Source: a virus (Duplodnaviria > Heunggongvirae > Uroviricota > Caudoviricetes). From it: DNA of 37,823 bases. Shown in pieces: positions 1 through 37,823 of the stretch. The position numbers were made by a program, and so were the translations under genes. Each line of letters starts with the position of its first letter. Within the stretch, counting starts at the first letter, position 1. The notes under the pieces are model-generated. The model had not been told where the DNA came from, did not search any database, and worked only from the letters and a program-made list of their open reading frames with translations. The stretch is taken from IMG/VR virus record IMGVR_UViG_2917855067_000005; one strand, given 5' to 3'.

Positions 1-774
<774 letters not shown>

Positions 775-23991: not shown

Positions 23992-25026
23992 ATGACTGCA
24001 TCAGCGACCCCCACTAATATCACTCATAAGTTTATTGTTCACATTATGAACAAGGAACAACAGGGGTTAGCCACCATTATTCCTTGTCCTTCAGAAAAAC
24101 CTGTTCAGCAAGCATCAAAAGACCTCTCTAACGCACTTACTGAAAGGTACTCTGGGAGAGCAGGTAAAGGATATGGGAAATTTGAAGATGACCGCGATAG
24201 TTACCCTATGGGTAATATCGTTGATGATTATTTCGTAAATAAAACACATAGTTTTTATGATACTAGTATCCGAATGATCAATCATTTAAAAGCCAGAGCC
24301 GATGATGAATCAATGTCTACTGGTGGTTATGTAATAATTGCCCATAATGAGGTAAATGGAAATCATTATTTGATGGTTGCAATCCTAACTTCAGCAGTTG
24401 GCTCTTCAGTCCACGATTTTGAAATTCAAGAAAGTGAATATCTAGACATTGCTAAACTTCGAGTAGCGGGACGAATTGACTTAACTGGGCGCCAGAATGG
24501 CAAAGAGAGATATATTAGCTTTCTAAAGGGGCAAAATTCAGTAGCAGGTTATTTCAAAAAGTTTTTAGGTTGCAACGATATTCTAATTGCCAAACAAGAA
24601 ACAACAAAATTACGGAATGCACTTTTAGAATTTGCTACTGAAAGAGGTTTTGAACCAGAGGCACGTGAAGAGTTCCTAAATAAGGCTCATGAAAAATTAA
24701 AAAATTTAAATCGTTCTGGTGAAACTTTCGACACTCAAATTTTTGCAAACGAGATATGGCCAACTGCTCCTGAGTTGTTAGTTGAAAAGTTAACCAATGA
24801 CGATCTGGAGTTCTCTGATGGGTTCGTGCCTGATGGCAACGTTATACGTGGGCTTGTTAGTTTCAAAGGAAAGTCCAAACATTGGTCTCTGAAATTCGAG
24901 CGTGCGGCCTTGCATGATGGCAGCGTTCTTTATGATTCAGAAAACGATAAATTGATACTTACCGAGATTCCGGATACGCTAAGATCAGAGATTTTATCAG
25001 AATTAGGTGAAGAGGATGAGCAGTAA
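23992..25026 (+). CDS. Nucleoid-associated protein YejK/NdpA-like (NA37 family) homolog, phage-borne
   Basis: 344-aa ORF with AAGGA RBS; central region GGYVIIAHNEVNGNHYLMVAILTSAVG ... YLDIAKLRVAGRIDLTGRQNGKERYISFLKGQNSVAGYFKKFLG parallels my recollection of E. coli YejK; visibly AT-rich. Confidence 0.68.
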   Translation: MTASATPTNITHKFIVHIMNKEQQGLATIIPCPSEKPVQQASKDLSNALTERYSGRAGKGYGKFEDDRDSYPMGNIVDDYFVNKTHSFYDTSIRMINHLKARADDESMSTGGYVIIAHNEVNGNHYLMVAILTSAVGSSVHDFEIQESEYLDIAKLRVAGRIDLTGRQNGKERYISFLKGQNSVAGYFKKFLGCNDILIAKQETTKLRNALLEFATERGFEPEAREEFLNKAHEKLKNLNRSGETFDTQIFANEIWPTAPELLVEKLTNDDLEFSDGFVPDGNVIRGLVSFKGKSKHWSLKFERAALHDGSVLYDSENDKLILTEIPDTLRSEILSELGEEDEQ

Positions 25027-26194
25027 AAATCAGAGAACCTTCAAAGACTTAGTGACTATTTACAAGGCCGCTACATTTGCAGGTACCCTATCTGAAGCAT
25101 CACTCATTCTTTCAAACGAGGAGCTCTGTGACATCATCAACGATATCACAGAGAATCCCCATGATTTTGGCATCACCCTTGAATCTGGCAACATTGAGTT
25201 AGGCCAAACTATAACCTTACATATAACCCCCCCCAAATTACGATTGGGGCAGCTACATTTCTCTTTTAATGAGTATTTAAAAAATCCTAAAAATAGGATA
25301 AAGGAAGCCAGTAACTTCTTTATAATCGAACTTAATTATCACAACAGGGATAAAAAGTCGCCTGCTATTATATCCAAGTACAGAGATGTTTTGAGCTTAA
25401 TTACTTTATTCAAAGATTGTTCTGCTTATTTAGATGAAACAAATTTTGAATTGGTATTCGTCGAATCCAACGTACTAAAAATTCCAGTAAATTATTCTAG
25501 CGATGATCTTATGAATGTTAATGGAGATCTGATTCATAATTTGATCGCAAACTTTGCAGAAGATACGCATAAAGATCAAAAACTTACTATTTTAGCAAGT
25601 AGTATAAAATCATCATGTGAATCTAAAACTAAAGAAACCTCTTTTTCCTTCATGTTAAGGGATTTAGGACAACTTTATGAAAGTTATCAAAAAGGATACA
25701 AAGTATTCGTTTCTGGTTTTTCTTACGAGAAAATACTGGATCAGTTACGAGTAGCCAAAATAGAAGAGATGGGGAAAATACATAAAGTATTCAGTGACAT
25801 ACAAAAATCAGATATTAGGTATCCCCTCGCAACAATTATCGTTGCGACTCAAATGAAGCAGGCTAATGGTTGGGATAGTCAAGCATTAATAAACACAGCT
25901 GTAGTGTTGGGTGCATTGTTCTTCACTATTATGATTATATTTGTTCTATTTAATCAATGGCAAACTTTAACAGCAATAAATGATGAGTTAAATCATAAAA
26001 AACAACAAGCAGAATATAACTTCAAGGCTATTTACGAAGATATAAAGGATACATTTGATAGTTTAACCACAAGATTGCTTGTTCAGAAAGTTGTTTTTGC
26101 CTCATTAGGAATTATAGTTTTATGTGGCTTATATCTTACATTTAGATTCTACTTTTTACTTACACCTTATGCTATTACATATTTATTTATCTGA
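25016..26194 (+). CDS. Hypothetical protein with two C-terminal transmembrane helices (partner of the YejK-like gene)
   Basis: Track ORF from GTG 25007; ATG at 25016 has AGGTGA 6 nt upstream; overlaps the upstream gene; hydrophobic segments NTAVVLGALFFTIMIIFVLF and VVFASLGIIVLCGLYLTFRFYFLL; AT-rich. Confidence 0.65.
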   Translation: MSSKNQRTFKDLVTIYKAATFAGTLSEASLILSNEELCDIINDITENPHDFGITLESGNIELGQTITLHITPPKLRLGQLHFSFNEYLKNPKNRIKEASNFFIIELNYHNRDKKSPAIISKYRDVLSLITLFKDCSAYLDETNFELVFVESNVLKIPVNYSSDDLMNVNGDLIHNLIANFAEDTHKDQKLTILASSIKSSCESKTKETSFSFMLRDLGQLYESYQKGYKVFVSGFSYEKILDQLRVAKIEEMGKIHKVFSDIQKSDIRYPLATIIVATQMKQANGWDSQALINTAVVLGALFFTIMIIFVLFNQWQTLTAINDELNHKKQQAEYNFKAIYEDIKDTFDSLTTRLLVQKVVFASLGIIVLCGLYLTFRFYFLLTPYAITYLFI

Positions 26195-34446: not shown

Positions 34447-34692
34447 ATGCTTCAAATGTTAACTCTTGAAGAATGGGCTTCTGAAAAATACAGAAGTAAT
34501 CCTCCAAGCGTTTCCACGTTGCGTCGTTATGCTAAGCAGAATTTGTTTTGTCCACCGGCAATGAAACAAGGTCGGTTATGGCGAGTGCGTGAGGACGCCG
34601 AGTTAGTTGGAGAGCTGGTAACACCAGTAATTAAGAAAAATGACTCATTACTTTTGCAACGGATTTTGAGTGATGGCAGCCAGACCGCGTAA
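34447..34692 (+). CDS. xis: Excisionase
   Basis: 81-aa ORF immediately upstream of and overlapping int; MLTLEEWASEKYRSNPPSVSTLRRYAK pattern of lambdoid excisionase-like proteins. Confidence 0.7.
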   Translation: MLQMLTLEEWASEKYRSNPPSVSTLRRYAKQNLFCPPAMKQGRLWRVREDAELVGELVTPVIKKNDSLLLQRILSDGSQTA

Positions 34693-35801
34693 GAATAATG
34701 TTTCAGTCCCTAACTTATATCCGCTTTATAGCCGAAAGGTAAATAAAGTCTATTGGCGGTATAAGCATCCAATAACAGGGAAATTCCATGCTTTGGGAAC
34801 AAACGAAACTGAAGCTATCGCTATTGCCACTGAAGCCAATACGCGCCTGGCTGAACAAAGAACCCGGCAGATTCTGGCCATCAGTGACAGGATCGCAACC
34901 AGCAAAGGGAAAGCAATCACAACGTCAACTTGGTTAGATCGCTATCAAGCGATCCAGAATGACAGGCTGAAAAAGTGGTGATATAAAGCTCAACACCTAC
35001 AAGCAGAAAGCCAAACCTGTCTCCTTACTTAGAGAACGGGCAGGATTGAAGCTAATTTCAGCTGTTGATGTCCGGGATATTGCACAATTACTTGATGAGT
35101 ATATTGCCGCTGGGCAACCGAGAATGGCACAAGTAGTTCGCTCCGTCCTGATTGATGTTTTCAAAGAGGCGCAGCACTACGGAGAAGTACCTCCTGGCTA
35201 TAACCCTGCATTAGCTACTAAACAGCCAAGAAGAAAAATTACCCGACAAAGGCTGAGCCTCGAAGAATGGAAAAAAATATTCGATATCGCAGATGCCAGC
35301 CATCGTTACATGGGAAATGCCATGCTGCTAGCCTTGGTTACTGGTCAGCGGTTAGGCGATATTTCACGTATGAAATTTAGCGATATTTGGGATGATCATC
35401 TGCATGTCATTCAGGAAAAAACCGGGAGCAAAATCGCCATCCCGCTTTCCCTGCGCCTCAATGCGATTAACTGGAGTTTGCGCGATGTAGTAGCCCGTTG
35501 CCGTGACTATGCTGTCAGCCCATACCTTGTACATTTTTTTCGTACTACTTCACAGGCTGAACGCGGCGCACAGGTTAAAGCCAATACCTTGACTATGAAT
35601 TTCAGTAAAGCAAGAGATTTAGCAGGAATTGACTGGGGTGAAGGTTCTCCCGCAACATTTCATGAACAAAGGTCTTTATCAGAACGTTTGTATAAAGAAC
35701 AGGGTTTAAATACACAAAAATTACTTGGTCATAAAACACAACAACAAACCGATCGTTATCATGACGATCGAGGCAAGGGATGGAGCAAAGTAGCGTTGTG
35801 A
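34670..35801 (+). CDS. int: Tyrosine integrase (lambda Int family), interrupted by a 1-nt frameshift in an A5 run (34980..34984)
   Basis: Track ORFs 34670..34981 (arm-binding N-terminus) and 35046..35801 (catalytic domain ... HEQRSLSERLYKEQ ... LLGHK ... DRYHDDRG); removing one A gives ...NDRLKSGDIKLNTYKQ.... Confidence 0.85.
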
Positions 35802-35951
35802 AAATTTAACATTAATATTAGATAAAAGTCTCTAGTAGTTCTTCAACGTCGAAAGCTAACCACCGAAATCAAATATGATAACGGTGGTCATTCGATACTA
35901 AAATGTCAAGCTTTTATCGGTAACAAAAATTCAATAAAAGTGAATCGGCCC

Positions 35952-37823
35952 TTAAACCACGATTCCTAAATGGCATGGTTGCTCACCTTCAAGAGAGGCT
36001 CTCATTAAGGTCAGGAATTGGGATAAATTATTTCTAAAATCAGAACCACTATCTTCCGCCATTCCTGGAGCTAACGAACTTACTAATAAAGCAGGTGTGA
36101 TAGGTCTTGTTCCGTAAATACTATATTTCTCATGATGGAAATGACGAGTCTCGCAAGATTCACTTGGATTTACAATCATCAGCCCAGAAGACAAACTTTT
36201 TCCAGTATTTTTTTCATGTATACCATGAAGGTATTTCATAGTGAGTTCGGGGAGGTAATGTGTAAACGCTTTTTTACTGGTAGTATACTTTGCATCTAGG
36301 ATTAATTGCCTTTGTTCACCCGTAGGCGTTGAAATGCAAACTATCATGTCTGGTGATCGATTAGCATTAGGACCTTGCTGCCCTCTAGGCTTCAATTTAC
36401 CTTTCACGGTGTCTAGAGTCCACCCTTCGGAGTTAATTAGGGAAGCCCCAAAAGAGCTTGCATGATCATGAGTCCAAATTTTCATCTCATAGATAAGCTG
36501 TACAGTAAAACCTCCCCAGTCATACTCAAAATTATTCCGTTCTATTACAGGGCCATTCACTAGCTCAAACTTCATGCCCAATAGCCGTACGTTGTCAAAG
36601 TGATACTTAATTAAAAATAATAGGTAGTATTCAAAAAGTTTTGGGATACTTTGTATCGAAAATAGCTCTTCCTGTACGCTCCAATCAGGTGCGCCGAATC
36701 TATGCCAAGCAATTATTTTATGAAAAACCTTCTGATAATGAAGGTTGTATCTAGCTTTTCTTGTGAATTGCGGAGTGCCAATGATAATATTAGTTACAGG
36801 AACCCGCTCATCAAAAGTTCGTTTCAAACGCTGTAGATTAATAATCAATTCTTTACATCGTGAAACTTTATTTTTATTTACAACCTTTGCAAACTTACTT
36901 AGCTGTGCAAAAAATGAAATATACCCGGATATGCTCGACTGTTCACGAATTCTGGAAGAAGGATACTCTTCAAGCCGACTCAAGATCTCCGATGCAGCAC
37001 GCATTAGGGATACTATAAAGCCATGGACAACTTGATTTTCATAAATATTCAAATCCTCTTTTAGATGATTTTCTAATATTCGTTCCGATGAATAATATGT
37101 GCCATCTAGTTCCAATATTGCGCGGGTCTGATCATTAACTGGATAAAGGTTGTCAGAGTTTTCTGAAATCCAAGCTAAAGTGGTGTCATCGATAACAGAG
37201 TTTTCGGATACTACGACAACTTTAGTCACTGGTGTAAGTTTTGCGATTGGCCTGGAATAGATATTTGGAATCTCGGTCATTAACAATAAAACATTTCGTT
37301 CGAGTTGTTCAATCAAAAAGCTAACCGATCTTTCTCCTTCTTTGAATCCTGCATTTATACGAGTTACTCTAAAAAATGCTGCTAGAGCATCATTATCATG
37401 ACACGCTAAGAAATCGAGCATTTTTTCTGCCCGTTCAGCATTCAATTTTTTGGCAAATACTTCAACCGGAGAATATTGTTCAATAATAACTCTTTCGCCA
37501 ACTCCATCGATTTTTGTTACTATCGATAGCTCTGCCATACCATAATAGTTATGAAAAAAGCATTCGTATGTTGATCGATATATAGATTTTGGTTTCCATT
37601 CGTAAATCCATAGGCCATCGTATTCTTTGCTAGAAGTTATTCCTATTTCATTTTCATGAAGACATAAAAAAACATCATCCAACGGAACAGATGCTTCCAG
37701 CCTAAACTCTAGAGCTTCGTCTTCCAGAAAATAAATCTGATTAGAGGACTGAAGACCAAAGGGAGTCAACCCTATCTCTAGACCACTTCTCCTGCCGTTT
37801 ATTATCTTCGCAGTAAACCTCAT
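35952..37823 (-). CDS. Large hypothetical protein with C-terminal PD-(D/E)xK-like nuclease motif (candidate restriction/defence component)
   Basis: 623-aa intact ORF starting at the last three bases of the window; visibly AT-rich; motif SPDMIVCISTPTGEQRQLILDAKY fits PD ... (D/E)xK spacing. Confidence 0.65.
   Translation of the reverse strand: MRFTAKIINGRRSGLEIGLTPFGLQSSNQIYFLEDEALEFRLEASVPLDDVFLCLHENEIGITSSKEYDGLWIYEWKPKSIYRSTYECFFHNYYGMAELSIVTKIDGVGERVIIEQYSPVEVFAKKLNAERAEKMLDFLACHDNDALAAFFRVTRINAGFKEGERSVSFLIEQLERNVLLLMTEIPNIYSRPIAKLTPVTKVVVVSENSVIDDTTLAWISENSDNLYPVNDQTRAILELDGTYYSSERILENHLKEDLNIYENQVVHGFIVSLMRAASEILSRLEEYPSSRIREQSSISGYISFFAQLSKFAKVVNKNKVSRCKELIINLQRLKRTFDERVPVTNIIIGTPQFTRKARYNLHYQKVFHKIIAWHRFGAPDWSVQEELFSIQSIPKLFEYYLLFLIKYHFDNVRLLGMKFELVNGPVIERNNFEYDWGGFTVQLIYEMKIWTHDHASSFGASLINSEGWTLDTVKGKLKPRGQQGPNANRSPDMIVCISTPTGEQRQLILDAKYTTSKKAFTHYLPELTMKYLHGIHEKNTGKSLSSGLMIVNPSESCETRHFHHEKYSIYGTRPITPALLVSSLAPGMAEDSGSDFRNNLSQFLTLMRASLEGEQPCHLGIVV

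What the first reader, a model, noticed from the sequence alone, without database searches (positions are those of the whole stretch)
35952..37823. 623-aa AT-rich gene next to the integrase with a PD-(D/E)xK-like motif
This large gene lies 150 bp beyond the int stop on the opposite strand, begins exactly at the window edge, and is visibly more AT-rich than the prophage core. The C-terminal third contains PDMIV ... LDAKY, the spacing and chemistry of a PD-(D/E)xK nuclease core as seen in McrC-type proteins. A large nuclease-domain protein at an integrase-proximal position suggests a restriction or defence component whose partner gene may lie just outside the window.
Basis: partly seen in the sequence, partly recalled or inferred. 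Interest (0 to 1): 0.6.

Follow-up and report, generated by a model that had tools for sequence, protein, structure and literature searches.

The report
Prophage-borne McrC-like restriction nuclease gene
The 623-aa gene encodes the nuclease half of a two-gene McrBC-type restriction/defence system carried as cargo by an e14-like E. coli prophage; it belongs to a variant class already described by computation, so it is a useful example but not a new kind of system.

The parts
35952..37823 (-). Complete coding sequence (623 aa plus stop) of the McrC-like (CnuC-like) nuclease subunit
37449..37823 (-). aa 1-125: N-terminal all-beta, Ig-like sandwich domain, which E. coli K-12 McrC lacks
36591..37448 (-). 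aa 126-411: McrC N-terminal (DUF2357) helical bundle with an inserted beta element (aa 195-257). I infer this to be the part that engages the NTPase hexamer.
   Evidence: Pfam DUF2357 on aa 90-292, E 2.2e-9; secondary structure of the model; role of DUF2357 in McrC as described in PMC11090510
35988..36566 (-). aa 420-612: C-terminal alpha/beta PD-(D/E)xK nuclease domain
36348..36353 (-). Codons for P491-D492, the first acidic residue of the catalytic core
   Evidence: Invariant in 37 homologues; position checked against the sequence
36288..36296 (-). Codons for D510-A511-K512, the (D/E)xK of the catalytic core
   Evidence: Invariant in 37 homologues; aligned with D257-A258-K259 of E. coli K-12 McrC by hhalign
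35802..35951 (.). 150-bp convergent spacer between the integrase stop and the nuclease stop. This is where homology to other e14-like prophages ends.
   Evidence: In 467 E. coli genomes the match to intE stops at about window 35803-35813, and only 3 continue.
34670..35801 (+). intE-type integrase, the neighbour that marks the attL-proximal end of the prophage. In this window it is split by one extra A near 34970.

Best explanation
The gene encodes the nuclease subunit (McrC/CnuC homologue) of a two-gene, NTP-driven McrBC-type restriction system. An e14-like prophage carries the system as accessory cargo in the variable slot between attL (inside icd) and the integrase. The partner gene starts the operon and lies just beyond the window edge. 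It encodes an 848-aa McrB-like AAA+ NTPase with the shortened NxD signature, a long helical (coiled-coil-like) segment and an N-terminal beta-rich, probably nucleic-acid-binding region. The rest is inferred by analogy with McrBC structures. The NTPase would form hexamers. The DUF2357 part of the 623-aa protein would insert into the ring and stimulate hydrolysis. The N-terminal domains of the partner would pick the target. The invariant D492 / D510-x-K512 site would cut the bound nucleic acid and so protect the lysogen from other phages or invading DNA. The architecture fits the Type I-C CoCoNuT class (Bell et al. 2024). What is shown: domain content, catalytic motif conservation, fold, operon partner, NxD motif and cargo position. 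What is inferred: complex formation, substrate and defence phenotype.
Confidence: 0.8

Rival explanations
1. The proteins are the same, but the system works mainly on RNA (tRNA, tmRNA, rRNA or phage transcripts) and acts as an abortive-infection or dormancy module, not as a DNA restriction enzyme. This is what Bell et al. hypothesise for CoCoNuTs.
For: The partner is in the NxD / coiled-coil branch, for which RNA targeting was proposed. Its N-terminal region gives weak matches to RNA-binding OB/S1 folds. These include exosome chain 5c0w_I, which is the entry Bell et al. list for the Type I-C CnuB OB fold, Rrp44 and Lin28. The same prophage slot in K-12 holds Lit, an abortive-infection protease. 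A Type II CoCoNuT-like locus blocks RNA phages.
Against: The nuclease is an intact PD-(D/E)xK of McrC type, a fold that typically cuts DNA. No HEPN or other RNase gene is adjacent in any of the seven contexts read. No CSD, YTH or EVE domain is detectable by Pfam. The fold matches are below significance and also include dsDNA-binding HIN-200 tandem OB folds.
Confidence: 0.2
2. The gene is a host-island or housekeeping gene that merely sits next to the prophage and is not part of the mobile element.
For: It is at the extreme edge of the window, beyond the integrase, next to the chromosomal gene icd.
Against: The 3' end of icd is duplicated at both ends of the element, over about 165 bp with a stretch of about 115 identical bases. 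The intact icd flanks the cassette, so the cassette is inside the att boundaries. RefSeq annotates K-12 e14 as starting inside icd, with lit, ymfE and ymfD in the same place. GC is 37-38% against 50% for icd. Only 3 of 5426 E. coli genomes have the gene. Homologues sit in other integrase-bearing islands and on plasmids.
Confidence: 0.03
3. The protein is a stand-alone nuclease with a phage-own role (recombination, homing or host DNA degradation during lytic growth), and its pairing with the AAA+ gene is incidental.
For: PD-(D/E)xK nucleases serve many phage functions. The gene is in a prophage.
Against: A large upstream partner gene, with gaps of 2-50 bp, is present in all seven contexts read. 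These cover Escherichia, Pseudomonas, Acinetobacter, Vibrio and a metagenome, down to 33% identity. The DUF2357 domain is specific to McrC-type partners of McrB NTPases. There is no homologue in 50,697 phage genomes. The gene is oriented against the int/xis unit and sits in the accessory slot.
Confidence: 0.04

Closest known systems
Type I-C CoCoNuT (CnuB + CnuC), Bell, Sahakyan, Makarova, Wolf & Koonin, eLife 2024 (PMC11090510). Defined computationally; no member characterised.
   Same: A two-gene operon in the order NTPase then nuclease. The NTPase has the NxD signature, an N-terminal beta-rich region and a long helical segment before the AAA+ domain. The nuclease subunit has the layout Ig-like domain, McrC_N (DUF2357), intact PD-DxK, about 600 aa. 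It occurs mostly in Gammaproteobacteria.
   Different: Clade membership in their GTPase tree was not verified. CSD and YTH domains were not demonstrated here (weak OB-like fold matches only). The NxD is followed by Ala, not the usual Glu/Asp. The setting here is the attL-int cargo slot of an e14-like prophage.
E. coli K-12 McrBC (EcoKMcrBC), Type IV methyl-directed restriction enzyme; structures 6hz4 and 6ut5
   Same: An AAA+ NTPase gene followed by a DUF2357 plus PD-(D/E)xK nuclease gene. The DAK catalytic motif aligns with McrC D257-A258-K259. Walker A, Walker B and the sensor Asn align with McrB.
   Different: NxD, not NxxD. No DUF3578/ADAM 5mC-reading domain. The partner is 848 aa against 459 aa, with a long helical insert. 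The nuclease subunit is 623 aa against 348 aa, with an extra N-terminal Ig-like domain. Sequence similarity is very low: BLASTP 1e-4 for McrB, and hhalign probability 9.8% for McrC.
Type I-A CoCoNuT of E. coli and Klebsiella (e.g. AZU78436.1/AZU78437.1 and SQC41356.1 in the eLife supplement)
   Same: The GTPase domains are clearly related (BLASTP 7e-12 and 3e-6), and NND aligns with NID.
   Different: Type I-A has a helical insert between Walker B and NxD: about 124 aa in SQC41356.1 against 50 aa here. Its CnuC carries coiled-coil, CSD and zinc-ribbon additions that the 623-aa protein lacks.
Lit / ymfE / ymfD of cryptic prophage e14 (E. coli K-12)
   Same: The same chromosomal and prophage position, between the phage-supplied 3' end of icd and intE. 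This is accessory cargo with a known exclusion function (Lit).
   Different: The proteins and mechanisms are unrelated. The analogy is one of position only.
PADLOC candidate system PDC-M26
   Same: The partner hits model PDC-M26A at E 1.3e-16 over aa 310-652.
   Different: The match is partial. The nuclease subunit hits no PADLOC model. No description of PDC-M26 could be found in the library.

Membership tests
McrC family (nuclease subunit of McrBC-type systems) | McrC N-terminal domain (Pfam PF09823, DUF2357) | tested here: met
   37.4 bits against a gathering score of 23.3, E 2.2e-9, aa 90-292
McrC family (nuclease subunit of McrBC-type systems) | C-terminal PD-(D/E)xK nuclease with intact D...(D/E)xK | tested here: met
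   PDDEXK_7 is below threshold (19.2 against 22.1 bits). However, P491, D492, D510, A511 and K512 are invariant in 37 homologues, and DAK aligns with McrC D257-A258-K259.
McrC family (nuclease subunit of McrBC-type systems) | Fold similarity to solved McrC structures | tested here: met
McrC family (nuclease subunit of McrBC-type systems) | Encoded next to, and co-directional with, a McrB-type AAA+ NTPase gene | tested here: met
   An 848-aa AAA+ gene lies 9 bp upstream. hhalign against K-12 McrB gives probability 93%. A large upstream co-directional ORF is present in all seven contexts read, and the partner motifs were confirmed by alignment in six of them.
McrC family (nuclease subunit of McrBC-type systems) | Stimulates the partner's NTPase and cleaves nucleic acid in an NTP-dependent way | not testable with these tools
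   Needs biochemistry
Canonical McrBC (NxxD clade, modified-cytosine restriction) | NxxD signature motif in the NTPase | tested here: not met
   T673-I674-N675-N676-D677 is invariant. The Asp is one residue closer to the Asn than in McrB N-T-A-D.
Canonical McrBC (NxxD clade, modified-cytosine restriction) | N-terminal 5mC-reading domain (DUF3578/ADAM or equivalent small DNA-binding module) | tested here: not met
   No such Pfam hit in the partner. The N-terminal 210 aa are beta-rich with only weak OB-like fold matches.
CoCoNuT Type I-C (Bell et al. 2024) | NxD variant of the GTPase signature | tested here: met
CoCoNuT Type I-C (Bell et al. 2024) | Long coiled coil fused N-terminally to the GTPase domain | tested here: inconclusive
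   About aa 300-455 has no Pro or Gly and 50-57% charged or polar residues, and gives a weak hit to the SMC-like LmuB model. No dedicated coiled-coil predictor or structure model was run for this segment, and the heptad Fourier signal is weak.
CoCoNuT Type I-C (Bell et al. 2024) | CSD-like OB fold (and often a YTH-like domain) at the CnuB N-terminus | tested here: inconclusive
CoCoNuT Type I-C (Bell et al. 2024) | CnuC with an N-terminal Ig-like beta-sandwich, then McrC_N, then an active PD-DxK | tested here: met
CoCoNuT Type I-C (Bell et al. 2024) | Only two genes (no CnuA, CnuH, CnuE or HEPN), and no helical insert between Walker B and NxD (which would make it Type I-A) | tested here: met
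   The neighbourhoods differ outside the pair. Walker B to NxD is 50 aa here, against about 124 aa in a Type I-A CnuB.
CoCoNuT Type I-C (Bell et al. 2024) | Position inside the Type I-C clade of the published GTPase phylogeny | not tested
   The Type I-C sheets of the supplement are truncated in the stored copy, and the representative sequences GFD85286.1 and MBV0932851.1 were not retrievable.
PADLOC PDC-M26 candidate system | Matches to all component models | tested here: inconclusive
   The A component hits the partner (E 1.3e-16, partial). The 623-aa protein hits no model.

The most novel reading that the evidence does not exclude
This may be a naturally mobile, two-gene Type I CoCoNuT in an E. 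coli prophage. In that reading its OB-like sensor domains recognise RNA or a translation-linked signal, not modified DNA. It would then act as a prophage-encoded abortive-infection or RNA-directed restriction system, and would be the simplest genetically tractable model for the uncharacterised NxD branch of McrBC.
Probability: 0.2. Interest if true: 0.6.

Novelty: new member of a known kind. Interest (0 to 1): 0.3.

Why it matters
The NxD / coiled-coil branch of McrBC systems was described from genomes in 2024. As far as the searched literature shows, no Type I member has been tested. The only experimental report found concerns a seven-gene Type II-like locus in Pseudomonas. This is a compact two-gene member in E. 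coli, sitting in the same prophage slot as the classic Lit exclusion gene. That makes it an easy test case for three questions: what the shortened NxD motif does to NTPase control, what the partner's N-terminal domains recognise, and whether such systems cut DNA or RNA. The locus also documents the attL-int slot of e14-like prophages as a swap site for defence cargo. None of this changes current concepts, because the family and its likely role were already predicted.

Tried and rejected
- PADLOC, NCBIfam and PHROGs scans of the 623-aa protein gave no hits.
- A profile search of PDB sequences gave only chance hits.
- hhalign of the family profile against single sequences was weak. E. coli McrC gave probability 9.8%, although it aligned the catalytic motif. 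A truncated Type I-A CnuC gave 0.7%.
- I tried to find the proteins in the CoCoNuT supplements by accession and by peptide words. The stored files hold only Type I-A rows, with sequences cut at about 400 residues.
- A PDB sequence search with the helical segment gave nothing, and a simple heptad Fourier analysis was not striking.
- The promoter and terminator scan around the operon was not above shuffled expectation.
- A literature search for PDC-M26 returned nothing.
- I rejected a host island or housekeeping operon because of the att duplication and slot variability.
- I rejected canonical McrBC membership because the NxxD motif is absent.
- I rejected Type I-A because there is no helical insert, Type I-B because the helical segment is fused and there is no CnuA gene, and Types II and III because the nuclease is intact and there are no helicase or HEPN genes.

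Full report
**Observation**

The window holds a 623-codon ORF on the minus strand at 35952-37823. Its ATG is the last three bases of the window. The integrase ORF on the plus strand ends at 35801, so the two genes converge across a 150-bp spacer. The ORF is 37.7% GC. The structural core of the prophage is 55.0% and the whole window is 49.9%. PDMIV begins at residue 491 and LDAKY at residue 509.

The ORF is a real gene. One database search returned 119 clusters with 30-100% identity, nearly all 590-645 aa long. A profile search of 1.84 billion cluster representatives found 1035 relatives at E <= 1e-3 and 240 at E <= 1e-30.

**What the protein is**

Pfam assigns DUF2357 to aa 90-292 at 37.4 bits, above the curated cutoff of 23.3. 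It also gives a sub-threshold PDDEXK_7 (PF04411) match to aa 482-516. In the McrBC census of Bell et al. (PMC11090510), DUF2357 is the N-terminal domain of McrC that binds and activates the McrB GTPase, and PF04411 is one of the models of the McrC nuclease.

In an alignment of 37 homologues at 26-87% identity, E466, P491, D492, D510, A511, K512 and Y513 are invariant. Profile comparison with E. coli K-12 McrC is weak overall (probability 9.8%). It does, however, place ILDAKY on IVDAKY, that is D257-A258-K259 of McrC.

An AlphaFold2 model built on this alignment has mean pLDDT 82.6 and three parts:
- an all-beta N-terminal domain, aa 1-125;
- a helical bundle with an inserted beta element, aa 126-411;
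- an alpha/beta domain, aa 420-612.

**The partner outside the window**

Three complete E. coli genomes carry the region at 99.8-99.9% identity. In strain 82.0312 the gene (WP_053270794.1, annotated as a DUF2357 domain-containing protein) is preceded on the same strand by an 848-aa 'hypothetical protein' (WP_053270793.1). The gap is 9 bp, and a Shine-Dalgarno-like AAGGTG overlaps the upstream stop codon.

This partner has weak hits to many AAA models, including AAA_5. It also hits the PADLOC candidate model PDC-M26A at E 1.3e-16. In its homologues GPPGTGKT (538-545), LLDEAN (621-626) and T-I-N-N-D (673-677) are invariant.

hhalign against K-12 McrB gives probability 93%. It aligns N675 with the McrB sensor asparagine and puts the aspartate one residue earlier than in N-T-A-D. 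The motif is therefore NxD, not NxxD.

BLASTP against the GTPase part of a Type I-A CoCoNuT CnuB, taken from the paper's supplement, gives 7e-12 and 3e-6, with NND aligned to NID. K-12 McrB gives only 1e-4, confined to Walker A. The Walker B to NxD distance is 50 aa here and about 124 aa in the Type I-A protein, so the Type I-A insert is absent.

**Conservation of the pair**

In every context read, the DUF2357 gene is immediately preceded, on the same strand, by a gene of 821-865 codons. The surrounding genes differ. The contexts are:
- the e14-like prophage;
- a small E. coli island with integrase, AlpA and Rep genes;
- two Pseudomonas chromosomal sites;
- an Acinetobacter integrase island, next to helicase, PLD and kinase-helicase genes;
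- a Vibrio island with integrase, AlpA and primase-polymerase genes;
- a metagenomic contig.

Relatives occur on 28 plasmids, but not in 50,697 phage genome records.

**Cargo status**

About 165 bp of the 3' end of icd is present at both ends of the element, with a stretch of about 115 identical bases. The intact icd gene directly flanks the two-gene cassette. RefSeq annotates K-12 e14 as starting inside icd, and there the same interval up to intE holds ymfD, ymfE and lit.

Homology to intE is found in 467 of 5426 E. coli genomes and stops about 10 bp after the integrase stop. Only the three genomes above continue into the nuclease gene. In other strains the slot holds an AAA ATPase plus an HNH endonuclease, or an Sll1717-family P-loop ATPase. 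The pair is therefore variable accessory cargo of the prophage. It is about 37% GC like its intergenic surroundings, against 50% for icd.

**Mechanism**

Shown:
- McrC-type domain content;
- an intact and invariant catalytic triad;
- an McrC-like fold;
- a large co-directional upstream gene in every context read, shown to be a McrB-type NTPase with an NxD signature in the six contexts where it was aligned;
- location in a defence-type cargo slot.

Inferred from McrBC structures, as summarised in PMC11090510: the NTPase hexamerises, the DUF2357 part of the 623-aa protein enters the ring and stimulates hydrolysis, the partner's N-terminal domains select the target, and the PD-DxK site cleaves it.

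Whether the substrate is modified DNA, unmodified foreign DNA or RNA is open. Bell et al. argue for RNA involvement in CoCoNuTs. The intact McrC-type nuclease and the absence of any RNase gene argue for DNA. The only experimental datum found is a 2026 preprint, in which a seven-gene Type II CoCoNuT-like locus protected P. aeruginosa against two RNA phages and one DNA phage.

**Comparison and novelty**

The system works like McrBC and passes the McrC membership tests. It fails the canonical NxxD and 5mC-reader tests, so it is not EcoKMcrBC-like in the strict sense.

Its architecture matches Type I-C CoCoNuT on several points: the NxD motif, a fused helical segment, an Ig-McrC_N-PD-DxK nuclease subunit, only two genes, and no Type I-A insert. 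The CSD/YTH content and the phylogenetic placement could not be confirmed.

I rate it a new member of a known, computationally defined kind. Interest is modest (0.3). Its value is as a compact E. coli test case for the uncharacterised NxD branch, and as evidence that the attL-int slot of e14-like prophages exchanges defence cargo.

Noticed in passing
window 1-774 (+): The first gene of the window is a 257-aa GIY-YIG protein. It matches the PADLOC model for the defence gene PD-T4-3 end to end (E 2.4e-137) and Pfam LEM-3_GIY-YIG. Both ends of this prophage therefore carry defence-type cargo. In strain 82.0312 an mcrA remnant and the icd' fragment lie just beyond it.
   Followed up: partly
window 34670-35801, around 34970: Relative to intE of strain 82.0312, the integrase has one extra A in an A-run (CTGAAAAAGTGG against CTGAAAAGTGG). 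This splits it into a 103-aa ORF and a 251-aa ORF. It is either a real frameshift, in which case the prophage may be unable to excise, or a sequencing error.
   Followed up: partly
window 23992-26194 (+): An AT-rich (34-38% GC) two-ORF insert lies between the lysis genes and the Q antiterminator. It encodes a 344-aa NA37/YejK-like nucleoid-associated protein (Pfam E 8.3e-69) and an overlapping 395-aa protein with no Pfam or PADLOC hit. The content differs from strain 82.0312, which has genes of 340 and 194 aa at this position. It may be a second cargo slot.
   Followed up: partly
L006 (NZ_CP122451.1 2874000-2884200), outside the window: In strain 82.0312 a second, lambda-like prophage with its own integrase abuts the icd' fragment, so two prophages sit in tandem at icd. 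Next to its repressor it carries a Ser/Thr kinase plus PP2C phosphatase gene pair.
   Followed up: no
L018 8069-10443 and L019 8208-9491 (other E. coli strains), outside the window: The same icd-intE slot holds an AAA family ATPase plus an HNH endonuclease in strain 5132. That is a Septu-like architecture judged from the annotation only. In strain MS1657 it holds an Sll1717-family P-loop ATPase. The slot behaves as a defence-cargo hotspot.
   Followed up: no
L002 4327-13575 (E. coli GCA_024585525.1), outside the window: A 40%-identical paralogous pair (849 aa plus 618 aa; the nuclease cluster has 119 member sequences) sits in a small island with integrase, AlpA and Rep-like genes between xseA and der. 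This looks like a satellite-type element carrying the same kind of system.
   Followed up: partly
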